DNA from: an uncultured Acetobacteraceae bacterium
Lineage (GTDB): Bacteria > Pseudomonadota > Alphaproteobacteria > Acetobacterales > Acetobacteraceae
Length of the DNA stretch: 64,000 nucleotides
NCBI GenBank assembly: GCA_937873225.1
Contig: CALMVN010000146.1
Span: 335 to 64,334 of the forward strand
Reading direction: 5' to 3'
Shown here: positions 6,871-56,219 of the stretch, piece by piece
Layout: the number at the start of each line of letters is the position of its first letter
Numbering within the stretch: position 1 is the first letter of the stretch
The notes under the pieces: generated by a model
Told to the model about the DNA's origin: nothing
Seen by the model: only the letters and a program-made list of their open reading frames with translations
Databases searched by the model: none
Made by a program: the position numbers and the translations under genes

Positions 6871-7606
6871 GGGAGGCGGATCCGGCGGCGGCCCGGTCCA
6901 GCACCCAGATCAGCTCGCCCTCGGTCGCGACGTGCGTCGACGGCAGCGTAGCGTCGCCGCCGCGGACCTTGGCCACCACCTCGGCCTTGGCTGCACCCGC
7001 GACCAGGAACAGCACCGCGCGGCTGCTGGCGATCGCCGGGTAGGTCAGGGTCAGGCGCGTGTGCGGGGCGTCGTGCGGCACGCAGGTGCCCACCCAGGCC
7101 TCGCGTTCCTCCAGCACGTCGGTGCCCGGGAACAGCGAGGCGGTGTGGCCATTCTCGCCCAGGCCCAGCAGCACCACGTCGAACAGCGGACGGCCGGGCT
7201 CGATGGTCTCCGCGCCGTACTGCATCCGCAGCTCGCGCTCGTAGCGCCGCGCCGCGTCGGCCGGGTCGCCGTCGGTCGGCATGCGGTGCACCGAGTTCGG
7301 CGGCACCGGCACGTGCGACAGCATCGCCAGGTTGGCCATGTTGTAGTTGCTCGACGGGTCGGCCGGCGGCACGAAGCGCTCGTCGCCGAAGAACAGCTGC
7401 ACCCGGTCCCACGGGAACCGCTTGGCGTAGCTTCCACCGGCCAGGATCTCGTACAACCGCTTGGGCGTCGAGCCGCCGGACAGCGCCACGGTGAACGGCC
7501 CGTCGGCGGCGATCGCCCGCTCGGTCAGGAAGTCGGCGGCGTAGTGCGCGACCGCCTCGGCGTCGTCCAGCACCTCGACACGGCCAGTGGTGGCGTCGCT
7601 GCTCAT
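6863..7606 (-). CDS. pgl: 6-phosphogluconolactonase
   Basis: ALSGGSTP, FFGDERFVP, SNYNMA, FDVVLLGLGENGHTASLFP, RLTLTYP. ATG 7606 is the 3' part of ORF 6863..8947. Confidence 0.96.
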   Translation of the reverse strand: MSSDATTGRVEVLDDAEAVAHYAADFLTERAIAADGPFTVALSGGSTPKRLYEILAGGSYAKRFPWDRVQLFFGDERFVPPADPSSNYNMANLAMLSHVPVPPNSVHRMPTDGDPADAARRYERELRMQYGAETIEPGRPLFDVVLLGLGENGHTASLFPGTDVLEEREAWVGTCVPHDAPHTRLTLTYPAIASSRAVLFLVAGAAKAEVVAKVRGGDATLPSTHVATEGELIWVLDRAAAGSASHG

Positions 7607-8421
7607 GGCGCGTTCCCCAGCACGTAGCGCTCGATCGCCTTGGCGAAGCCCTCCTCCTCGGAGGAGTCGCTCACGTGGGTGGCGGCCTGCTTCACCTCGT
7701 CGCTGGACTGCCCCATCGCGATCGACAGGCCGCTCTTCCTGAACATCAGCACGTCGTTGGGCTGGTCGCCGAGGGTAGCGATCTCCGCAGCCTTGATGCC
7801 GAGCATGCGCTCCAGGCTGGCGACGACGCCGCCCTTGTTCGCCTGCGGGTGCGTCACGTCGAGGTAGTACGGCTGCGAGCGTGCCGCCGAGGCGGTGTCG
7901 CCGAGCGCCTCCTGCGCGTCGCGCTCCACCTTCTTCATCAGCTCGAGGTCGTCGCTGACGCCGACGATCTTCACCGCCGAGTCCAGCGCCGCGCCGAAGT
8001 CGCTCGTCACCTTGGGCGCGAACTTCACCGTCCACTGCTCGCGATCGACGTGCGGCCCCTTGGCGTCCGGAACCAGCCAGTCCTCGCCGCTGTACACCCA
8101 GACGTCGACCTTGTGGTCGCGCAGCACCTGCACGGTCTGGTCCGCCGCCTTGCGCGGCAGCGTCTTCGCCTCGATGATCGACAGGTCCGGATGCACGAAC
8201 AGCCCGCCGTTGAAGCCGGCGATCGGCTCGGTGATGCCGAGCGGCTCGATCAGCATGTTCATCCCCTTCGGCGGCCGTCCGCTGGTGATGGCGAAGCGGA
8301 TGCCGCGCTCGCGCAGGGTGCGCACCGCGCGGATCGCCCGCTCGGTCAGGATCTTCTCCTTGGTCACCAGCGTGCCGTCCACATCGGCCAGCACCAGGCT
8401 GATCTTCATCGGCTCGGCCAT
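7603..8421 (-). CDS. Cof-type HAD-IIB phosphatase (copy 1)
   Basis: Motif I DVDGT, motif II TSGR, ANKG, motif IV GDQPNDVLMF, AMGQS. Confidence 0.93.
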   Translation of the reverse strand: MAEPMKISLVLADVDGTLVTKEKILTERAIRAVRTLRERGIRFAITSGRPPKGMNMLIEPLGITEPIAGFNGGLFVHPDLSIIEAKTLPRKAADQTVQVLRDHKVDVWVYSGEDWLVPDAKGPHVDREQWTVKFAPKVTSDFGAALDSAVKIVGVSDDLELMKKVERDAQEALGDTASAARSQPYYLDVTHPQANKGGVVASLERMLGIKAAEIATLGDQPNDVLMFRKSGLSIAMGQSSDEVKQAATHVSDSSEEEGFAKAIERYVLGNAP

Positions 8422-8439
8422 CCCGTTCCCGTTCCTGTT

Positions 8440-9282
8440 CTAGGCCGTCGGCGCACGCGGCAGGATCAGCTCCTCGACCGCCTGCGCCCAGCCGTTCTCC
8501 GCGTTGGTCGCGGTCACGAAATGCGCCGCCTCGGCCACCTGCGCCGGCGCGTTGCCCATCGCCACGCCGAGGCCGGCGGCCTGCAGCATGGAGATGTCGT
8601 TGTCCATGTCGCCGATGCAGGCGAGCTCGGTCGGATCCACGCCCAGGATCGCGGCCAGGCGCAGCGCCGCACGGCCCTTGTTGGCCTCCGGATGGGTGAC
8701 GTCGAGATACCAGGGCGAGGAGCGGTGCGCGCTGACCTCGCCCGCCAGCATCGCCTGCAGCTCGATCTCCACCCGCTCCAGCAGCGGATAGTCCGTGGTG
8801 GCACCCATGATCTTGCCGATCCGGTCGTAGAACGGCTCGAACGACTCGACCACCGTGGGCTCGAACTGCACCGCCTTCTGCTCGCGCGGCACGAAGGCGC
8901 CGGCGGCGTCGCGTATCACCCACTGGTGTCCGGTGAACAGCCAGCACTCAATGCGGTTGGTGGTCAGCGTCTCGACCGCGAGGCGCGCCGCCTGGGCGTC
9001 GAGCGACTGCAGCTCCAGCACGCTGCCGTCGGCGGCGACGATCTCGCCGCCGTTCAGCCCGGCGGCAGGAGTGTCGATCCCGAGCGGCCCGAGATACATC
9101 CGCATCCCGCGCACCGACCGGCTGCTCGCCAGGCACAGCATGATCCCCGCCTCGCGCAGCCTTTCCGCCGCCGCGAGGGTCGATGGGGCGAGCTGCTTGT
9201 CGGGGCCGATGATGGTGCCGTCGATGTCCGACACCAGCAGCCTGATGCAGGACGACGGGGCCGCGCGCGGCGGGATCATCAT
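8440..9282 (-). CDS. Cof-type HAD-IIB phosphatase (copy 2)
   Basis: DIDGT, ASSR, YLDVTHPEANKG, GDMDNDISML, VAMGNA. Start overlaps the zwf stop. Confidence 0.93.
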   Translation of the reverse strand: MMIPPRAAPSSCIRLLVSDIDGTIIGPDKQLAPSTLAAAERLREAGIMLCLASSRSVRGMRMYLGPLGIDTPAAGLNGGEIVAADGSVLELQSLDAQAARLAVETLTTNRIECWLFTGHQWVIRDAAGAFVPREQKAVQFEPTVVESFEPFYDRIGKIMGATTDYPLLERVEIELQAMLAGEVSAHRSSPWYLDVTHPEANKGRAALRLAAILGVDPTELACIGDMDNDISMLQAAGLGVAMGNAPAQVAEAAHFVTATNAENGWAQAVEELILPRAPTA

Positions 9283-25156: not shown

Positions 25157-26175
25157 CCGGACCGACCTTTCCGGTGTCCGACCATTGCGACGGGACCCTG
25201 TTCCACAACCCCGACACCGAGCCCGCCCCGCAAAGGCCGTCCGCTGGCCGCGGCCTGCTGCCGATCCTGCGCTGGCGCCTGGGCGGCACGCGCGCGCCCT
25301 GGCCGACCGCGATCGTCGACCCGCCGCCGACGGGCGATCCACGCGACGAGCCGCCGCCGGACGGCGCCACGCTGACCTTTCTCGGCCATGCCGGCTTCCT
25401 CCTGCGCCTGCCCGGCCTGACGGTCCTGACCGATCCGGTGTTCAGCGAGCGCTGCTCGCCGGTGTCGTGGGCGGGGCCGAGGCGGGCGCGGCCGCCGGGG
25501 CGCCGCCTGGACGCGCTGCCGCCGGTCGACCTGGTGCTGGTGTCGCACAACCACTACGACCACCTCGACCTGCCGAGCCTGTCGGCGATCGTGCGGCGCG
25601 ACGCGCCGGCCTTCGTCACCCCGCTCGGCAACGGGCGGCTGCTGGCGAAGGCGGGGGCCACGCGGATCACCGAGCTGGACTGGTGGCAGTCGCACCGGAT
25701 CGGCGATGCCACGGTCACCGCCACCCCGGCACGGCACTTCTCCGCCCGCACCCCGTTCGACGGCAGGCGGGCGCTGTGGTCCGGCTTCATGATCGAGCGG
25801 GCGCCGATGCGTGTGCTGTTCGCCGGCGACTCCGGCGACGGGCCGCACTGGGGCGAGATCGGCAGGCAGCTGGGCGCGCCCGATTTGGCGCTGCTGCCGA
25901 TCGGCGCCTACGACCCGCGCTCGCTGATGGCGCCGGTGCACATGAACCCGGAGGAAGCGGTCTCCGCCCACCTGTCGCTGGGCGCGCGCCGCTCGGTGGG
26001 CATGCATTTCGGCACCTTCCAGCTGACCGACGAGCCGATCGACGAGCCGGAGCGCCGGCTGGCCGCGTCGTGCCGCGATCGCGGCCTGCCGCCGGACGCG
26101 TTCGTCACCCTCGGCTGCGGCGACACCCGGAGCTTCACGGCGTCATCACCATCGCTGCCGGGCGGAACCGGCTGA
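25153..26175 (+). CDS. Metallo-beta-lactamase-fold hydrolase (NAPE-PLD/RomA-like)
   Basis: FLGHA, LTDPVFS, SHNHYDHLD (HxHxDH), PARHFS, FAGDSG, LPIGAY, HMNPEEA, GMHFGTF. ATGA overlap with the upstream gene. Confidence 0.93.
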   Translation: MTGPTFPVSDHCDGTLFHNPDTEPAPQRPSAGRGLLPILRWRLGGTRAPWPTAIVDPPPTGDPRDEPPPDGATLTFLGHAGFLLRLPGLTVLTDPVFSERCSPVSWAGPRRARPPGRRLDALPPVDLVLVSHNHYDHLDLPSLSAIVRRDAPAFVTPLGNGRLLAKAGATRITELDWWQSHRIGDATVTATPARHFSARTPFDGRRALWSGFMIERAPMRVLFAGDSGDGPHWGEIGRQLGAPDLALLPIGAYDPRSLMAPVHMNPEEAVSAHLSLGARRSVGMHFGTFQLTDEPIDEPERRLAASCRDRGLPPDAFVTLGCGDTRSFTASSPSLPGGTG

Positions 26176-26189
26176 GACAGGGCGGGTTG
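26164..26189 (+). promoter_or_regulatory. EcfG/SigT-type promoter for glgX-treZ-treY
   Basis: GGAAC cggctgagacagggcgg GTTG (N17), ending about 38 nt before the glgX start. Confidence 0.7.
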
Positions 26190-48785: not shown

Positions 48786-49494
48786 GCCATACCTCGCAGC
48801 AGGACACGCAGCCGCGTCCGGATCGCCCGTCCTCGGGCCGCCGGATGCCGTCGCACCAGCCCGGTAGATGCCGCGAACAATGCCGAACGGTCCACGACGA
48901 AGTTGATGTCGTGGCGCAGCGGCGGCGCGGCGTCCCGCCGGCGACCGGCAGCACCCGGCCGGGATCGGCGATCCGGCCGCTCGAACCGTCGCCGGTGCGC
49001 GCGATGACGAGCGGCGACGCGGCCGCATCCGGCCGGGATCCGGCAGACAATCGCGCCCTTCCGCCGCTTCCGGCAGGCCGTCCGGCCCGGACGGCGGGTC
49101 GATTGCGCGACGCACCGGCACCCGGACAGGGTCGAACAGGTGGACGGGCCTGTCGCGCCATCCCGGCCCGAACGACCGCACCGGCCCCGCACCGCGAGGG
49201 ATCGCGACCGGGAACGGCCGAAAGGGCGGAGCCCGGGCCCGCTCCGCCCGTTGCCGAATCCGGAGCGGAACAGGATCCATGTCGATCCCCGTGAAGCCGC
49301 CTTCCGTCGCGGAGCCATGGCTTCCGCGGCGCGGGCCGCTTCCGCGAGGAACGGTCGGCACGCGAGTCCGCCCGGCTTCAGGCGGGCGACCTCCGGGACG
49401 CCGCGCATCGCCGGCAGGCGGTTTGACAGGACGGATCGCCCGTGTTGGGTGCGGCGCCGCCCCTTTCGACCCGCGCGTCCAGGATCCGCCGCCG

Positions 49495-52234
49495 ATGAAC
49501 CAGCCTTCCGCGACCGGACCAGGCGCCCTTGTTCCGTTGTTCCGGCGATGCGGCCGGATCCTGGCGCTCCTGCTGGTGGTCGGCGGATGGCTGCTGCCGG
49601 GCTGTGCGGCAACGGCCCAGGACCGCTCCGACGCCGGCACGGGCGCGACCGGTCATGCCCGGAGCGTCGACCCGCTGGCCGGGCTGACCCCGATCGAGCG
49701 GCAACGGCTGCGGGCGATCCTGGACGCGCCGGTCCCGGCCGCCGCCGGGGCGCCCCCTGCCGCCGCCAAGGCCGCGGCACCGGCCGCCGCGCCCAAGCCG
49801 AAAACGGTCAGCGTGGCGCCGGACAGCCTGGCCGGCCAGGTGCTGGTCGAGGCGACGGTGTTCCGGCGCGGGCTTCTGGCGGACGGCTCCACATTTCTGC
49901 GCCTGTTCGGCGACATCGCCCTGTCCGGCCGCTGGCTGCAGCGCGAGATGGTGGACCCGGCCGCGCGTGCCGCCCTGTTCGACGCGTTCTGGCGCAGCGC
50001 GCTGGTGGTGCTGGTGGGACTCGGCGCCGAGCACCTGCTTCTCCTGGCGCTGCGCCGTCCGCTGCGCGGGCTCGGCCGCGAGGCCGTCCTAGCCGACGAG
50101 GAGGCGGTGGACCCGCCGCTCCGGGACGCCGCCGTGCCCGGCCTGGTCCAGGCCGGGCCGCCGGCGCCCCCCCCCCCGGCGGGCCCCGCGCCCCAGCCGG
50201 GGGCCCGTCGGCCCCGCCCCCCCCTCCTGCCGCCGCCCCCCGGGCCCGGGCGGGGCCCGGCGGGGGCCGCCGGCTCCCGCCGACGCGGCGGACACGGCGC
50301 CGCTGCCGGGAGCCGTTCTGCCCGGCACCCCGATCGTGCCGACGCCCCCGTTGCCACAGCCGGCCGGAAGCGCTTCCGGCTCCCTGCCGGTCGACCCGCC
50401 ATCCGCCGACACCCTGCCGTCCGGCGAGGCGGCGTCCGCAGAGGAGAACCAGGCGGAGAACCAGGCGGAGAACCAGGCGGAGCACCGGTCGCGCGACGCC
50501 GCCCACAGGCGCAACACGCTGCGCGTGCTCCGCCGCGTGCCCTTCGCGCTGCTTCGCCTCGTGTTGAAGCTCCTCCCGCTCGGCGCCTTCCTGCTGATCG
50601 GCAACGGCGCCGCCACCCTTGTCGCCACCGCACCGCACACGCAGCTGGTGATCCTGGCCGTCACCAGCATCTACGGCGTCAGCCGCAGCCTCTGGCTCCT
50701 GATGGACATGCTGCTGGCGCCCCGCGCGCCAGGGGTGCGACTGGTCGAGGTATCGAACGAGACCGCACGCTTCCTGATCGGCTGGTGGGGCTGGCTGGTG
50801 GCGGTGCTCACGGTCGCCATCTGCATCACCGATGTCGGCCGGATCCTGGACCTGCCGGCACGCGCAGGGCTGGCGATCACCCGCCTGGTGGTGCTGGTGG
50901 AGCACGTCCTGGTCGCGGTGCTGATCTGGCAGACCCGTCGCAAGGTCGCGGAAAGCCTTCATCCGCCGCGCCGCCTGCGACGGCGCTCCTTCGGCCGGGT
51001 GCTGACGGTGCTGGCCGACCGCTGGTGGGTCCCGGCGCTGTTCTTCGACGCCGCCCTCTGGTTCGTCTGGGCGGCGCAGATACGCGGCGGCTACGCCAAG
51101 ATGTGGCAGCTGTTCCTGTCGAGCTGCATCGTCATCCTGGTCTGCCGCCTGATCGCGGTCATGCTGCTGGGCGGGCTGGACCGCCTGTTCCGGGTCGAGC
51201 CAGGCGTCGAGCTGCAGCATCCCGACCTGTTGCGGCGCGCCGGCCGCTACTACCCGGTGCTGCGCCGCATCGTGGTATGGGCGCTGAGCGTGGCCGGCGC
51301 CGTCGTCCTGCTGCAATGGTGGGGCATCCCGGCGCTCGGCTTCTTCACGCACGGCACCCTGGGGACCCGCCTGGTCTCGGCGCTGGTGACGGTTCTGGTC
51401 ACGGTGGTGGTCGGCGTGCTGGTCTGGGAGCTGGTCAACGGCGCGCTCGACCGGCAGATCGGCCGGTTCAACGACACCAACCAGGCCATGCGCGCGATCC
51501 GGCTGCAGACCCTGCTGCCGATCCTGCGCACGCTGCTGTTCGTGGTGCTGGGCGCGATCCTGCTGCTGACGGTGCTGAGCGAGATCGGCGTGGACATCGC
51601 GCCCCTGCTGGCCGGCGCCGGCATCCTGGGCGTCGCGGTCGGCTTCGGCTCGCAGAAGCTGGTGCAGGACTTCATCACCGGCATCTTCCTGCTGGTCGAG
51701 AACGCGATGCAGGTGGGCGACAGCGTCACCGTGGCCGGGATCAGCGGCACCGTCGAGCACCTGTCGATCCGCACGCTGCGCCTGCGCGGCGGCGACGGCT
51801 CGATCCAGATCATCCCGTTCTCCTCGGTGTCCACCGTGGCCAACATGAGCCGCGACTTCGCGGTGGCCACGGTCAGCATCGCCATCGCCTTTTCCGAGGA
51901 CACCGACCGGGTGTGCACCATGCTGGACGCGATCGGCGCCGAGCTGCGCGCGGATGAGGGGTTCGGGGACAAGATCCTGGCCGACTTCGCCCTGAACGGC
52001 ATCGACAGCCTGGGCGAATACGCGGTGGCGATCAGCGGCACGATGCGCTGCACCGTGGCCGGGCGCTGGCCGGTGCAGCGCGAGTTCAACCGCCGCCTGC
52101 GTGCCCGCATGATGGAGGACAGCATCGCCCTGCCTCAGGTGCATCGCACCCTCGACCTGCCGGCCTTGCCCGGCCTGCTCGATCGGGCGCAGCCTCGCAC
52201 GGCGACTTTCGACCAGGACACGAGCCATGGCTGA
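49495..52234 (+). CDS. Large MscS-family mechanosensitive channel, frameshifted near 50160-50280
   Basis: The N-terminal half (TM plus APDSLAGQVL) is in ORF 49279..51957. The C-terminal half (LAGAGILGVAVGFGSQKLVQDFITG, QVGD, GTVEHLSIRTLRLR, IIPFSSV, QREFNRRL) is in ORF 50336..52234. The frames differ by one. Confidence 0.85.
50155..50280 (+). repeat. Nearly A/T-free tract with C11 (50167-77) and C8 (50217-24) homopolymers
   Basis: Only 5 A/T bases in about 126 nt; coincides with the frame change in mscS. Confidence 0.85.
50443..50482 (+). repeat. 12-bp tandem repeat x3.3 encoding (ENQA)3
   Basis: GGAGAACCAGGC x3 followed by GGAG. Confidence 0.9.
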
Positions 52235-52949
52235 CCCCGCCGCCGCTCCGGAACAGCTGCTCGCCGCGGACGGCTACGCGTTCGTTCCGGCGCTACGGAT
52301 GCGGGCGCTGCTCGGGGCCGCGGCGCTGGAGCGCTGGGACGGGTTCGCGTCGAGCTGGGACCATCTCGGCATCGACCGCTACATGGCCGATGGCGGCCGC
52401 TACCGGCGGCGGCGGCACGCGGTGTTCGCCGCCGGCGCCGCGGGGTTCGAGCGCAAGCCGCACCAGCCGCACTACCAGAGCCGCGACCACAACGCCCTGA
52501 ACGGCGGCATCGAGCGCTGGTTCACCCCCGTGGAGGACCAGGTCGCCACCCATCCGGTGCTGCTGGCGATCCTGTCCGCCTGCCGCTCCCTGTTCGAGGA
52601 GCTGACCCCGCCGGGCGCGCGACCGGACACCTGGCACGTCGAGCTGCACCAGTTCCGGATCGAGCCGAGCGGGAACGAGGACGGCCATCCGACCCCCGAG
52701 GGCCTGCACCGCGACGGCGTCGACTGGGTGCTGGTGCTTCTGGTGGCGCGCGAGAACATCGCCAGCGGGGTCACCAGCATCCACGACGCGCAGCGCCGCC
52801 TGCTCGGCAGCTTCACCCTCGAGCAGCCGCTGGACGCCGCCCTGGTCGATGACGGCCGCGTCTACCACGGCGTCACCGCGATCCGTCCGCTCGACCCGGC
52901 GCTGCCCGCGCATCGCGACGTGCTCGTGGTCACCTTTCGCCGGCAGTGA
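52227..52949 (+). CDS. 2OG-Fe(II) dioxygenase family protein (2OG-Fe_Oxy_2/BsmA-like)
   Basis: D.YMADGGRYRRRR, HYQSRDHN.LNGG, HQFRI, PEGLHRDG (HxD), VYHGVT (His), RDVLVVTF (Arg). 8-bp overlap with mscS. Confidence 0.9.
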   Translation: MADPAAAPEQLLAADGYAFVPALRMRALLGAAALERWDGFASSWDHLGIDRYMADGGRYRRRRHAVFAAGAAGFERKPHQPHYQSRDHNALNGGIERWFTPVEDQVATHPVLLAILSACRSLFEELTPPGARPDTWHVELHQFRIEPSGNEDGHPTPEGLHRDGVDWVLVLLVARENIASGVTSIHDAQRRLLGSFTLEQPLDAALVDDGRVYHGVTAIRPLDPALPAHRDVLVVTFRRQ

Positions 52950-52977
52950 TGCGGCAGGCGCCAGGACGACCGGACAT

Positions 52978-53002
52978 GGAACCGGGCCGGCCGGCCGGGG
53001 TT
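52978..53002 (+). promoter_or_regulatory. EcfG/SigT-type promoter for a small ORF
   Basis: GGAAC cgggccggccggccggg GTT (N17), followed by GGAGG at 53017. Confidence 0.7.
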
Positions 53003-53032
53003 TGAAGACGCGCATCGGAGGCAAGGCATCGC

Positions 53033-53155
53033 GTGTCCGGCATCATCAAGACCTTCCTGCTCGGCGTGGGCCTGGCCGGTCTCTCCACCCTCGTCTGTCC
53101 GCACATGTGGTCCGGTCTGCGCCGGCGCGGCACGAACGTCCGGCCACAAGCGTGA
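53033..53155 (+). CDS. Unannotated 40-aa single-TM peptide
   Basis: GTG...TGA encoding MSGIIKTFLLGVGLAGLSTLVCPHMWSGLRRRGTNVRPQA. It has a promoter motif, GGAGG/AAGG RBS and GC-ending codons, and lies below the ORF-track size cut-off. Confidence 0.6.
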   Translation: MSGIIKTFLLGVGLAGLSTLVCPHMWSGLRRRGTNVRPQA

Positions 53156-53185
53156 CCGGCGGCCGGAACCACCCCGGGGAACGGC

Positions 53186-54202
53186 TCAGCGCCTGATCCC
53201 GAGGCCGGGCTTGATCGTCGACCGGGCGACGGTGAAGCGGTTCAGCATGTCGAACCAGAACGGCGCGCCCAGCGTCACCGCGAACGCCGTGACGGTCCAG
53301 CCGATCAGCATCTGCAGCACGGCGCCAGGATCGAGCGCACCGGGCCTCCCGCCGGCGCCCGGACGGCGGAGCTGTTGCGGCGGCGGGTCGCCCCAGCCGC
53401 ACGGGAAGCGTATCTGCGCCAGCTCGTCGCGCAGGGCGGCGAACCCTTCCCTGGCCTGTTCCGGCACCCCGCCCGCGTCCTGCGGCACCAGGGAGGCGGC
53501 CTGCGCCACCGCCCCGTCGCGCAGCGCCTTGTCCTCGAACAGGGCCTTGCCGACGCTGAACGCGTCGACGTTCATCACGCCCGCCATCAGGAGCCCGATC
53601 CCGAACAGCATCACCTGCGTGCGGCGCTTGTACCAGCCGGATACCCGCTCCATGCAGCTGTCGAACCAGCGCTCGATCGCCTCCCGGACGCGCCCGAGGT
53701 CGTCTTCCGCCCCGTCCAGCGCGCTCAACAGCGCCCGCCTGGTGCGGCTGTCCGGCATTGCCTGCGCCCGTGCCGACAGCGCCCGGACCGTGACCGGCTC
53801 GCCCGTTTCCGAACCTGCGCCGCCGATCGGTCCGCGCACCACGAGGTCCAGGAATGCGCGCGCGAAGTTCCCGGCCGGGATGTAGGCGGGCAGGTTGCCA
53901 CGCCGCCTGATCGGCATGCGCAGCGACCGGGTCCCGGTCAGCAGGCTTCGGTGCGGCCGCAACTGCCCGGGCGCGTAGGACCCGTCGAACAGGGCGAACA
54001 CCATCGGGTGGGAATACAGGGCGCGCGCCGCTCCCTGTCCGGCGGGATCGTCCAGCATCTCCCGTATCCCGCGCTCCAGGTCCGAGGCACGGGTGTTGAG
54101 CACGGCCTCGATCGCCTCGCGTATCGCCGAGCACACCAGGCTGACGAACAGGAACAGCAGGCAGAGCCCGATCGCGACGTCAAGAACCACCGAGCCGAAC
54201 AT
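53186..54202 (-). CDS. Hypothetical membrane protein
   Basis: AAGG RBS. N-terminal TM (MFGSVVLDVAIGLCLLFLFVSLVCSAIRE), a central hydrophobic segment, and a C-terminal GWTVTAFAVTLGAPFWFDMLN. Confidence 0.8.
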   Translation of the reverse strand: MFGSVVLDVAIGLCLLFLFVSLVCSAIREAIEAVLNTRASDLERGIREMLDDPAGQGAARALYSHPMVFALFDGSYAPGQLRPHRSLLTGTRSLRMPIRRRGNLPAYIPAGNFARAFLDLVVRGPIGGAGSETGEPVTVRALSARAQAMPDSRTRRALLSALDGAEDDLGRVREAIERWFDSCMERVSGWYKRRTQVMLFGIGLLMAGVMNVDAFSVGKALFEDKALRDGAVAQAASLVPQDAGGVPEQAREGFAALRDELAQIRFPCGWGDPPPQQLRRPGAGGRPGALDPGAVLQMLIGWTVTAFAVTLGAPFWFDMLNRFTVARSTIKPGLGIRR

Positions 54203-54422
54203 CGCCTTCCTTCCGCCAACGGGCAGCACGCACGCGGCGATCCTGACCGGTTCAACGCACCGGAACAATGAACCGGAACGATCCCGTCCGCGTCCGGAGC
54301 CTTTGGCGGCACGAGGCGCCGGGGTCGTTAGCGATCCGTAAGGGAATTCTTCCTATCGTGGCGGCAACCGAAACCGATCGGGTGGTCCGGCAGGAACGGG
54401 CCGGCCCGGAAGCGGAGCCAGC

Positions 54423-56219
54423 GTGTTGCCGTATCCTTCCCAATCCCTGCCCTTCCAGCCCGTGGACGATGCCGGGCCGGACGACTCGGGCGAGGCGCGC
54501 GCGCCGGTTGCGGGCCTGCACCTGCGCGCCGCACTTGACGGCCTGGAAGCGGGCCTCGTCACCTTCAACAGGACGCTCGACATCCTGTTCGTCAACAGCC
54601 GGCTGCGCTCCATGCTGGAGATCGATCCTGCCGTGGCCGGCGGAGTCGGGTCGCTGCTGATGCTGATGGAGGCCAGCGCCGTTCTGTCCACGACGGTCGT
54701 GCAGCAGGTCCACGAGGCCTGCCAGGGCGCGGTCGACACCCGGACCCCCCAGGAGGTCACGCTTGCGGCGCCGGGGGCACGCTTCTTCTCGCTGCGCGTG
54801 GGCGGGCTCGTCGACCGGCACTGGATGGCCTCCTTCACCGAGGTGACCGCGCAGCGCACCGCGGAAGCGCAGGCGGTCGAGCGGGCGAAGTGCGATCCCT
54901 TGACCGGCCTGCTCAGCCGCACCCTGTTCCACGACCGGATCAGCGTTCTTCTCGACACCGGGCCCGACCACGAGCCGACGGGCCAGCCCGCGGCCGATCC
55001 GCCGCACCCGGTGCGGCACGCGGTGATGGCGGTCGATCTGGATCGCTTCAAGAGCGTGAACGACACGCTGGGCCATTCCACCGGCGACGGGCTGCTCTGC
55101 CTGGTCGCCAGGCGGCTGCGCTCGGTGCTGCGCCAGCACGACGCCCTGTCCAGGCTCGGCGGCGACGAGTTCGCCCTGCTGGTGTCGCCGGCACCGGACC
55201 GGACCGTGCTGGACCAGCTGGCGCGACGGATCACCGACGTGATCGGCCGGCCCTACCTGGTCGACGGGCACCTGGTGAACATCGGCGCCAGCATCGGCAT
55301 CGCCGTCTTTCCGGAGGATGGCGCCACGCGCGTCGAGCTGCTGCGCAACGCCGACCTGGCGCTCTACGACGCCAAGGCCATGGGCCGCAGCACCCACAGC
55401 TTCTTCAGGCCGGAGATGGACGCGCGCGCGGTGGCGCGGCGCCTGATCGAGATCGACCTGCGCAAGGCGCTGGCGCTGCGCCAGTTCGAGCTGCACTACC
55501 AGCCGCAGATCGACCTGGAGCGCCATGCCATCGTCGGCTTCGAGGCGCTGCTCCGCTGGCGCCATCCCGAGCGCGGCATGGTGTCGCCGGCCGAGTTCAT
55601 CCCGCTCGCCGAGGAGATCGGGCTGATCGTGCCGCTCGGCGAGTGGGTGCTGAACCAGGCCTGCCTGGAAGCGACGCACTGGTCGGAGCCGGTCACCATC
55701 GCGGTCAACGTGTCGCCCTACCAGTTCGAGGACACGAACCGGCTGGTCGAGGCGGTGGGCCGGGCGCTCAGCCTGTCCGGCCTGCCCGGCCGCAGGCTGG
55801 AGATCGAGATCACCGAAAGCGTGCTTCTGCGCAACGCCGAGCCGGTGCTGGCCGCACTGCACCGGCTGCGCGGGATGGGCGTGCGGGTGGCGATGGACGA
55901 TTTCGGCACCGGCTATTCCTCGCTGAGCCAGCTGCACAGCTTCCCGTTCGACAAGATCAAGATCGACCGGTCGTTCGTGAAGGACCGCGACGACGATGTC
56001 GGGCAGAACGCGATCATCCGGGCGATCACGGCGCTCGGCGCCAGCCTGGGCATGGCCACGATCGCCGAGGGGGTGGAAACCGCCGGCCAGCTGGAGCGGA
56101 TACGCGACGGCGGCTGCACCTCCGTGCAGGGCTACCTGTTCAGCCGGCCGGTCCCGGTCGCGCAGGTGGCCGGGCTGATCGCCGGCTACAACCAGTTCCA
56201 ACCCACCCCCGCTTACTGA
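54423..56219 (+). CDS. PAS-like + GGDEF + EAL hybrid diguanylate cyclase/phosphodiesterase
   Basis: DPLTGLLSR, DLDRFKSVNDTLGH, RQHD I-site, GGDEF, YQPQ, EALLRW, EITES, DDFGTGYSSL, KIDRSFV, EGVET, QGYLFSRP. Confidence 0.96.
   Translation: MLPYPSQSLPFQPVDDAGPDDSGEARAPVAGLHLRAALDGLEAGLVTFNRTLDILFVNSRLRSMLEIDPAVAGGVGSLLMLMEASAVLSTTVVQQVHEACQGAVDTRTPQEVTLAAPGARFFSLRVGGLVDRHWMASFTEVTAQRTAEAQAVERAKCDPLTGLLSRTLFHDRISVLLDTGPDHEPTGQPAADPPHPVRHAVMAVDLDRFKSVNDTLGHSTGDGLLCLVARRLRSVLRQHDALSRLGGDEFALLVSPAPDRTVLDQLARRITDVIGRPYLVDGHLVNIGASIGIAVFPEDGATRVELLRNADLALYDAKAMGRSTHSFFRPEMDARAVARRLIEIDLRKALALRQFELHYQPQIDLERHAIVGFEALLRWRHPERGMVSPAEFIPLAEEIGLIVPLGEWVLNQACLEATHWSEPVTIAVNVSPYQFEDTNRLVEAVGRALSLSGLPGRRLEIEITESVLLRNAEPVLAALHRLRGMGVRVAMDDFGTGYSSLSQLHSFPFDKIKIDRSFVKDRDDDVGQNAIIRAITALGASLGMATIAEGVETAGQLERIRDGGCTSVQGYLFSRPVPVAQVAGLIAGYNQFQPTPAY

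What the first reader, a model, noticed from the sequence alone, without database searches (positions are those of the whole stretch)
52978..53155. Hidden 40-aa membrane peptide with its own general-stress promoter
This apparently empty intergenic gap holds a complete small gene. Seen in sequence: GGAAC-N17-GTT (52978-53002), GGAGG (53017) and AAGG (53023), then GTG 53033 to TGA 53155. The product is MSGIIKTFLLGVGLAGLSTLVCPHMWSGLRRRGTNVRPQA, with a ~19-aa hydrophobic helix, a basic RRR cluster and mostly G/C-ending codons. Established: GGAAC-N16/17-(C)GTT is the alphaproteobacterial EcfG/SigT (PhyR-NepR) promoter. Inference: an unannotated stress-induced small membrane protein, perhaps modulating a transporter or channel such as the upstream MscS.
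Basis: partly seen in the sequence, partly recalled or inferred. Interest (0 to 1): 0.75.

Follow-up and report, generated by a model that had tools for sequence, protein, structure and literature searches.

The report
Uncalled 40-residue membrane peptide gene
The gap between two converging genes holds a real, conserved gene for a 40-residue membrane peptide that this assembly's gene calling missed; a general-stress promoter in front of it is plausible but not shown, and such small stress-regulon peptides are already a known kind.

Summary
In detail: every element is at the stated coordinates.

**The gene.** The 40-codon ORF (53033-53155, +) is a real gene.
- It is intact, single-copy and 39-42 codons long in 16 of 22 species of the genus (Lichenicola/Endosaccharibacter, Acetobacteraceae) and in Rhizosaccharibacter.
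- It varies mostly at third codon positions (dN/dS 0.25).
- It is as conserved as the flanking genes, while the spacer around it is full of indels.
- Gene callers call it in relatives (RefSeq: 'hypothetical protein') but not in this assembly.
- It encodes a single-pass membrane peptide of an unnamed, lineage-restricted family with no Pfam or NCBIfam model.

**The promoter.** An EcfG promoter is plausible (about 0.55) but not shown.
- For: the genome has PhyR-NepR-EcfG. GGAAC-N16/17-CGTT precedes CsbD, DUF1328, DUF3072, DUF892 and an rpoH-like gene, and a GGTT variant precedes DUF4142. Well-placed GGAAC-N16-GGTT sites number 4 against 0.8 expected. A hairpin or terminator reading fails.
- Against: **The MscS idea.** It rests on incomplete synteny. 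A convergent 338-aa unknown membrane protein is an equally steady neighbour.

This is a solid but ordinary result.

The parts
52978..52982 (+). Candidate -35 element GGAAC of an EcfG-type (ECF) promoter
   Evidence: Read. G(G/A)AACC is the most conserved non-coding block among 9 orthologous loci (0.96 majority identity against 0.63-0.82 in the rest of the spacer). Only 2 of the 9 read GGAAC; 7 read GAAAC.
52999..53002 (+). Candidate -10 element GGTT, 16 nt after the -35 (consensus is CGTT)
   Evidence: The spacer length of 16 is kept in all 9 type-A loci. Well-placed GGAAC-N16-GGTT sites number 4 in the genome against 0.8 at control spacings. GGTT and CATT variants occur at EcfG-dependent genes of Sphingomonas melonis (PMC6599016).
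53017..53026 (+). Shine-Dalgarno region (GGAGG 11 nt and AAGG 6 nt before the start)
   Evidence: Orthologues carry GGGGGAGG, GGAGAAG or GAAGGAG 6 nt before the same start codon.
53033..53155 (+). 40-codon gene for a single-pass membrane peptide (GTG start, TGA stop)
   Evidence: Intact and 39-42 codons long in 16 of 22 genus species plus one other genus. dN/dS is 0.25, and variable sites by codon position are 7/4/17. AlphaFold2 gives a helix over residues 2-35 with pLDDT about 90 for residues 1-20. Kyte-Doolittle mean is 1.9 over residues 4-22, and the C-flank has net charge +4.
52227..52949 (+). Upstream neighbour: 2OG-Fe dioxygenase (PF10014), overlapping the end of the MscS-like gene by 8 nt
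   Evidence: Pfam E = 2.6e-67. It lies directly upstream of the peptide gene in types A and B and in Rhizosaccharibacter.
50336..52234 (+). MscS-like mechanosensitive channel gene, C-terminal part as an open frame here
   Evidence: Pfam MS_channel_TM1, MS_channel_1st and MS_channel_2nd. The orthologue is 826 aa in the closed Lichenicola chromosome.
53186..54202 (-). Convergent neighbour: 338-aa membrane protein with no family, its stop 30 nt from the peptide's stop
   Evidence: No Pfam or NCBIfam hit. The called product is 338 aa from this contig. Present in 22 of 22 genus genomes. Adjacent to the peptide gene in type A and in the 'MQDDAGNPAPG' subtype, at 71% identity.

Best explanation
The ORF at 53033-53155 is a genuine protein-coding gene that this metagenome-assembled genome's gene calling missed. 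It encodes a 40-residue single-pass inner-membrane peptide. Residues 4-22 form the membrane helix. The positive-inside rule places the N-terminus outside and the basic tail (RRR) in the cytoplasm; this is inferred. The peptide belongs to an unnamed family of 39-42-residue peptides confined to the Lichenicola/Endosaccharibacter/Rhizosaccharibacter clade of Acetobacteraceae. What the family shares is the helix with a face of small residues (FLLG-x-G/A-L-A/S-G). The tails fall into at least four subtypes. By analogy with other small membrane proteins, the most likely mode of action is binding to a larger membrane protein through that helix; this is inferred, not shown. The two candidates by conserved linkage are the convergent 338-aa unknown membrane protein and the MscS-like channel of the upstream mscS/2OG-Fe operon. 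In this genome the gene is most likely transcribed from its own EcfG-type promoter (GGAAC-N16-GGTT, predicted start near 53010), which would make it part of the PhyR-NepR-EcfG general stress response. I put that step at about 0.55; read-through from the upstream operon is the alternative. The confidence of 0.85 given below is for the gene and its product, not for the promoter or the partner.
For: **Coding.**
- The frame is intact, with the same start and nearly the same length, in 10 type-A species at 73-88% identity.
- It is also intact in 2 type-B species, in 4 species with the 'MQDDAGNPAPG' tail and in Rhizosaccharibacter.
- dN/dS is 0.25 in frame, against 1.3-3.4 in four other frames. Variable sites by codon position are 7/4/17.
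- The one antisense frame with a similar ratio has stop codons in type-B loci.
- ORF codons 1-33 have 0.95 majority identity. The flanking genes have 0.94 and 0.89, and the non-coding parts 0.63-0.82.
- Gene callers call it in relatives.

**Membrane helix.**

**Promoter.**
- The genome carries phyR, two ECF sigma genes, nepR and a kinase. GGAAC-N16-CGTT lies before nepR.
- Non-coding GGAAC-N16/17-CGTT sites precede DUF1328, two CsbD genes, DUF3072, DUF892 and an rpoH-like gene. A GGAAC-N17-GGTT site precedes DUF4142.
- Well-placed sites number 8 and 6 against a mean of 1.4 at control spacings for CGTT, and 4 against 0.8 for N16-GGTT.
- GGTT and CATT -10 variants occur at EcfG-dependent genes of S. 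melonis.
- The -35 block is the best-conserved part of the spacer.
Against: In 7 of 9 close orthologues the -35 reads GAAAC, whereas the csbD promoters of the same genomes all keep GGAAC-N16/17-CGTT. The -10 block is no more conserved than its surroundings. The 'MQDDAGNPAPG' subtype and Rhizosaccharibacter lack the motif. GGAAC-N17-GTT alone is common: 4 in the window and 108 in the genome. No neighbour is universal. mscS/2OG-Fe is absent next to the gene in 4 genus species, and the 338-aa gene is absent from the Rhizosaccharibacter locus. The striking CPHMW motif is not kept outside type A.
Confidence: 0.85

Rival explanations
1. The gene is real but has no promoter of its own. It is the last cistron of the mscS/2OG-Fe operon, transcribed by read-through, and the GGAAC...GTT match is fortuitous or has some other role.
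For: No terminator lies between the 2OG-Fe stop and the ORF, and the gap is only 83 nt. A conserved TTGACA-type element precedes mscS in both the window and the closed Lichenicola chromosome. Orthologues mostly read GAAAC. Rhizosaccharibacter has the same gene order without the motif.
Against: The -35 block and the 16-nt spacing are conserved, while the rest of the spacer is not. Well-placed GGAAC-N16-GGTT sites are about five times over background in this genome. The 'MQDDAGNPAPG' subtype sits behind unrelated upstream genes, so the peptide gene can stand alone as a unit.
Confidence: 0.35
2. The GGAAC...GGTT stretch is a hairpin (terminator of the 2OG-Fe gene) or a palindromic operator, not a promoter.
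For: AAC and GTT are complementary, and the G+C-rich spacer can pair. The window's segment folds to -13.5 kcal/mol. In one type-B locus (L011/L052) the outer arms GGGGAACC...GGTTTCCCC pair across a longer spacer.
Against: Folding energies of 11 orthologous segments do not differ from shuffles (z from -1.6 to +2.2), and one locus (L004) has no hairpin yet carries a perfect GGAAC-N16-CGTT. The T-run is only 2-3 bases, and the terminator scan finds nothing. Canonical csbD promoters show the same partial palindrome.
Confidence: 0.1
3. The ORF is a chance open frame in G+C-rich non-coding DNA, or the conserved stretch is a non-coding RNA or an antisense-strand gene.
For: High-GC DNA gives many spurious ORFs here: one search lists several overlapping ones. 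One antisense frame also has a low dN/dS of 0.19.
Against: The sense frame keeps its start, SD, stop and length across subtypes that share only about 25-40% identity. The antisense frame has stops in type-B loci and no conserved start. There is no Rfam match. The substitution pattern is codon-like.
Confidence: 0.04
4. The product is a lipoprotein or secreted peptide cleaved before the invariant Cys22, rather than a membrane-anchored peptide.
For: Cys22 is invariant in the ten type-A species and follows a hydrophobic stretch.
Against: T-L-V-C does not fit the lipobox [LVI][ASTVI][GAS]C. This comparison is with the motif as I know it, not a tool test. Type B, Rhizosaccharibacter and most of the 'MQDDAGNPAPG' subtype have no Cys at that place. 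The basic cluster after the helix fits a cytoplasmic tail.
Confidence: 0.03

Closest known systems
Small, often unannotated ORFs of alphaproteobacterial general-stress regulons (RpoE2/EcfG), for example the newly identified protein-coding genes in rpoE2-dependent intergenic regions of Sinorhizobium meliloti (PMC3616915)
   Same: A short gene in an 'empty' gap, preceded by an ECF15-type GGAAC...GTT pattern at 25-60 nt, with a product of unknown function. Most genes of these regulons lack a known function.
   Different: There is no sequence relationship. Dependence on the sigma factor is shown there by arrays and 5' RACE, and is only predicted here. In most orthologues the -35 here departs from the consensus.
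DUF1328 (PF07043) and CsbD-DUF883_C small stress proteins with a membrane helix
   Same: Both are small proteins with a membrane helix. In this same genome they sit behind GGAAC-N16/17-CGTT.
   Different: There is no Pfam match of the 40-aa peptide to these or any other family. Those families are widespread, whereas this one is confined to one clade.
Regulatory small membrane proteins of enterobacteria (AcrZ, MgtS, KdpF, CydX, MgrB); from general knowledge, not tested here
   Same: Size (30-50 residues), a single helix, short tails, and action expected through binding to a larger membrane protein.
   Different: There is no homology. No partner is known here. In those cases the genes are often in the partner's operon or regulon, whereas here the linkage is split between two neighbours.

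Membership tests
EcfG (ECF15) dependent promoter | -35 element GGAAC | tested here: met
   GGAAC at 52978-52982. Among type-A orthologues only 2 of 9 keep GGAAC and 7 read GAAAC. Both type-B loci keep GGAAC.
EcfG (ECF15) dependent promoter | Spacer of 16-17 nt, then -10 element CGTT | tested here: inconclusive
   The spacer of 16 is met. The -10 is GGTT, not CGTT. GGTT variants precede DUF4142 and GlgX-like genes in this genome and occur at EcfG-dependent genes of S. melonis.
EcfG (ECF15) dependent promoter | Placed within about 100 nt upstream of a coding sequence, in non-coding DNA | tested here: met
   The -10 ends 30 nt before the start. Other candidate sites in this genome lie at 24-60 nt.
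EcfG (ECF15) dependent promoter | The organism has the PhyR-NepR-EcfG system and uses the motif | tested here: met
   Two NepR matches over the cut-off. A phyR-like gene lies divergent from two ECF sigma genes, nepR and a kinase on contig C324. Sigma domains were confirmed for the sigma gene next to nepR. The motif is enriched at spacings 16-17 before typical stress genes.
EcfG (ECF15) dependent promoter | Transcription start downstream of the -10, and dependence on ecfG/phyR | not testable with these tools
Genuine protein-coding small ORF | Frame, start and stop kept in relatives | tested here: met
   No stops, and 39-42 codons, in 17 genomes.
Genuine protein-coding small ORF | Purifying selection on the encoded residues | tested here: met
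   dN/dS 0.25 in frame against 1.3-3.4 in four other frames. Variable sites by codon position are 7/4/17.
Genuine protein-coding small ORF | Evidence of translation | not testable with these tools
   No ribosome profiling or proteomics is available. The SD and start codon are conserved.
Single-pass small membrane protein | One hydrophobic helix long enough to span the membrane | tested here: met
   Kyte-Doolittle mean of 1.8-2.0 over 19 residues in all four subtypes. AlphaFold2 gives a helix over residues 2-35.
Intrinsic terminator of the upstream gene | Stable G+C-rich hairpin followed by a T-run | tested here: not met
   No terminator-like site in 52700-53500. Hairpin energies are not below shuffles, and the T-run is 2-3 bases.
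Any named protein family (Pfam-A, NCBIfam) | Significant profile match | tested here: not met
   No hit for three subtypes of the peptide. A profile search of 1.84 billion representatives found only its own cluster.

The most novel reading that the evidence does not exclude
The peptide is a stress-induced accessory subunit that tunes the MscS-like channel, or the convergent 338-aa unknown membrane protein, during drying and rewetting in lichen-associated Acetobacteraceae. It would be a lineage-specific small regulator of osmotic-shock protection. Its subtype-specific cytoplasmic tails (CPHMW...RRR, MQDDAGNPAPG) would carry the regulatory contact.
Probability: 0.1. Interest if true: 0.55.

Novelty: new member of a known kind. 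Interest (0 to 1): 0.3.

Why it matters
It adds a verified, lineage-restricted small-protein family of 39-42 residues, with no Pfam or NCBIfam model, to the genomes of lichen- and plant-associated Acetobacteraceae. It also shows once more that gene callers treat such genes inconsistently: this one is called in relatives and missed here. If the EcfG dependence and a membrane partner were confirmed, it would be a tractable small-protein regulator in a stress response that matters for life on drying surfaces. Cultured relatives that carry the gene exist. As it stands, it is a good annotation correction, not a surprise.

Tried and rejected
- **Rfam.** A scan of 52000-54500 found no match.
- **Scans for sigma-70 promoters and terminators.** Both found nothing.
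- **Profile search of 1.84 billion representatives** with close homologues found only its own cluster, plus one spurious repeat protein.
- **Wider association with PF10014.** I asked whether the peptide gene generally follows the 2OG-Fe dioxygenase gene. That gene is in 246 of 301 family genomes. In 40 loci from other genera, and from two genus members, nothing similar follows it. The association is clade-specific.
- **Metal-binding reading of CPHMW (Cys, His, Met).** Rejected as a family feature because it is absent from type B, Rhizosaccharibacter and the 'MQDDAGNPAPG' subtype.
- **Lipoprotein reading.** Rejected: the lipobox fit is poor and the Cys is not conserved.
- **Hairpin or terminator reading.** Rejected on folding statistics.
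- **Whole-genome motif counts without context** were uninformative, because coding periodicity inflates spacings 13, 16, 19 and 22. Only counts restricted to non-coding sites with an SD-ORF behind them were useful. My gene mask for those counts is crude, being based on GC3.

Full report
**1. The observation**

- GGAAC at 52978-82.
- Sixteen bases, then GGTT at 52999-53002.
- GGAGG at 53017-21 and AAGG at 53023-26.
- GTG at 53033 and TGA ending at 53155.

The product is MSGIIKTFLLGVGLAGLSTLVCPHMWSGLRRRGTNVRPQA. GC by codon position is 0.65/0.55/0.88.

The 236-nt gap lies between two converging genes. One is a PF10014 2OG-Fe dioxygenase gene (52227-52949, +). It overlaps an MscS-like gene (50336-52234, +) by 8 nt. 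The other is a gene with no family (53186-54268 as the longest ORF, -). A PAS-GGDEF-EAL gene follows.

The promoter pattern alone is not rare. The window holds 4 copies against 0.63 expected, and the genome holds 108.

**2. Is the ORF a gene? Yes.**

*Presence in relatives.*
- A six-frame search of relatives found the frame intact in nine other species of the genus, at 73-85% identity and in the same place.
- A word-indexed protein search found four 40-residue proteins that gene callers had already predicted. Cluster members map to three of those genomes, including a closed 4.2-Mb chromosome.

*Conservation in the DNA alignment (quantified).*
- ORF codons 1-33 have 0.95 majority identity. The ends of the two flanking genes have 0.94 and 0.89.
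- The spacer before the ORF has 0.71-0.82, and the 30 nt after the stop have 0.63, with many indels.

*Substitution pattern.*
- Variable sites fall 7/4/17 on codon positions 1/2/3. dN/dS is 0.25 in frame and 1.3-3.4 in four other frames.
- The antisense frame that shares wobble positions also scores low (0.19). It has no conserved start, and it carries stop codons in the more distant loci.

*More distant members, found by following the synteny.*
- Type B is 40 aa (MSTLIKIFLLGVALSVGG...). It occurs in two genus species, one of them Endosaccharibacter trunci.
- A 40-aa form occurs in Rhizosaccharibacter radicis.
- A 41-42-aa subtype has a conserved tail, MQDDAGNPAPG.

*Distribution.* With a profile of all subtypes the gene is found once per genome in 16 of 22 species of the genus. 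Among 401 sampled genomes of the family it is in only one of 142 other genera.

*Annotation status.*
- RefSeq names two homologues 'hypothetical protein'.
- There is no Pfam or NCBIfam family.
- A profile search of 1.84 billion representatives found only its own cluster.
- In this assembly the products of three neighbouring genes on the same 67-kb contig are on record, but the 40-aa product is not. It was missed here.

*Organism.* Record titles identify the relatives as Acetobacteraceae genomes assembled from metagenomes, plus 'Lichenicola sp.'.

**3. The product**

- A 19-residue stretch (residues 4-22) has a mean Kyte-Doolittle hydropathy of 1.9. The C-terminal flank has net charge +4.
- AlphaFold2 gives one helix over residues 2-35, with pLDDT about 90 for the first 20 residues.
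- The positive-inside rule (established knowledge) then puts the N-terminus outside and the tail in the cytoplasm. This is an inference.
- The family shares M-x-x-x-x-K/R-x-F-L-L-G-x-G/A-L-A/S-G. This helix has a face of small residues, which suits helix-helix packing. The tails differ by subtype.
- The CPHMW motif of type A is not a family feature.

**4. The promoter**

*Evidence for.*
- The genome has the general-stress system. Two NepR matches pass the cut-off.
- On contig C324 a phyR-like gene lies divergent from two ECF sigma genes, nepR and a kinase. GGAAC-N16-CGTT lies about 60 nt before nepR.
- Genome-wide, non-coding GGAAC-N16/17-CGTT sites precede DUF1328, two CsbD genes, DUF3072, DUF892, an RpoH-like sigma gene and GH15-type genes. 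GGTT variants precede DUF4142 and a GlgX-type gene. These are typical members of published EcfG/RpoE2 regulons (PMC6599016, PMC3616915).
- I counted only non-coding sites with an SD-ORF 15-70 nt downstream. GGAAC-N16-CGTT gives 8 and N17 gives 6, against a mean of 1.4 at ten control spacings. GGAAC-N16-GGTT gives 4, including this site, against 0.8.
- In S. melonis, experimentally EcfG-dependent genes carry GGTT and CATT -10 variants. The motif derived there is GGAAC-N17-20-GTT.
- Among nine type-A loci the block G(G/A)AACC is the best-conserved part of the spacer (0.96). The 16-nt spacing is invariant while the spacer sequence varies. One species has a perfect GGAAC-N16-CGTT.
- Type B has GGAAC-N16/17-CGTC.

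*Evidence against.*
- Seven of the nine type-A loci read GAAAC. The csbD promoters of the same genomes all keep GGAAC-N16/17-CGTT.
- The -10 block is no better conserved than its surroundings.
- The MQDDAGNPAPG subtype and Rhizosaccharibacter lack the motif.
- No transcript data could be obtained.

*Rivals.*
- The hairpin or terminator reading fails. Folding energies of 11 orthologous segments do not differ from shuffles (z from -1.6 to +2.2), and the T-run is 2-3 bases.
- Read-through from the upstream operon remains a live rival, because no terminator separates the genes. That operon has a conserved TTGACA-type element and no EcfG motif.

I put an EcfG-dependent promoter in this genome at about 0.55.

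**5. Partner and function**

Linkage is split between two neighbours.
- mscS/2OG-Fe lies directly upstream in types A and B and in Rhizosaccharibacter. It does not in the four MQDDAGNPAPG species, where the upstream genes vary.
- The convergent 338-aa membrane protein has no family and is present in all 22 genus genomes.
  - It is adjacent, with a 25-30 nt gap, in the window and in the MQDDAGNPAPG loci (71% identity). It is also adjacent in the other type-A loci, with variable spacing.
  - It lies within 3 kb in type B.
  - It is absent from the Rhizosaccharibacter locus.
- The PF10014 gene is in 246 of 301 family genomes. In 40 loci, nearly all from other genera, no such peptide gene follows it.

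The proposal that the peptide modulates MscS is therefore possible but rests on incomplete synteny. The 338-aa protein is an equally good candidate. The mechanism I commit to is a helix-mediated accessory or regulatory subunit of a larger membrane protein. This is an inference by analogy with characterised small membrane proteins.

**6. Verdict**

The gene is real (0.9). It encodes a membrane peptide of an unnamed, clade-restricted family, and it was missed by this assembly's gene calling. A general-stress promoter is plausible but unproven, and the function is unknown. Small hydrophobic ORFs behind EcfG-type motifs are a known and recurrent kind (PMC3616915; earlier notes of this scan). I therefore rate it as a new member of a known kind, of modest interest.

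Noticed in passing
window 49279-52234: The MscS-like gene is a single 826-aa product in the closed Lichenicola chromosome and 978 aa in Rhizosaccharibacter. In the window only the last 632 codons are open in one frame, and the N-terminal part reads in another frame.
   Followed up: partly
window 53186-54202 (-): A 338-aa protein with about three hydrophobic helices and no Pfam or NCBIfam family is present in all 22 species of the genus. One species has a 35%-identical second copy. The called start is the Met 22 codons inside the longest ORF.
   Followed up: partly
genome contig C324, about 6900-9200 (-): General-stress locus. A phyR-like gene lies divergent from two tandem ECF sigma genes, followed by nepR and a histidine kinase. 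GGAAC-N16-CGTT, which also forms a GGGCCC hairpin followed by TTTT, lies between the second sigma gene and nepR. A second NepR-like ORF is on contig C325.
   Followed up: partly
window 26164-26188 (+): GGAAC-N16-GGTT lies 38 nt before a 712-aa GlgX-like ORF (debranching enzyme type, judged from its N-terminal sequence only). It is a likely general-stress promoter for glycogen or trehalose metabolism in the same window.
   Followed up: no
genome contig C314, near 3508 (-): GGAAC-N17-CGTT lies 130 nt before an RpoH-like sigma factor gene (Sigma70_r1_2, r2 and r4). This echoes the RpoE2-to-rpoH2 cascade of Sinorhizobium.
   Followed up: partly
loci L114-L117, L129, L130, L132, L144: A subtype of the peptide family (41-42 aa) ends in a strongly conserved acidic tail, MQDDAGNPAPG (LQDDAGNPAPV in L132). 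In the five closely related loci (L114, L116, L117, L129, L144) it is preceded by a conserved block (gcgacgcatcgattgc...cgttcgcgccggag) that is not an EcfG motif. In L114/L144 a transposase-like gene (DDE_5) lies a few kb upstream.
   Followed up: partly
window 49430-49470 (+): A TTGACA-type element (GGTTTGACAGGAC...GTGTTGGGTGC) upstream of the mscS start is conserved between the window and the closed Lichenicola chromosome. It is probably the housekeeping promoter of the mscS/2OG-Fe operon.
   Followed up: no
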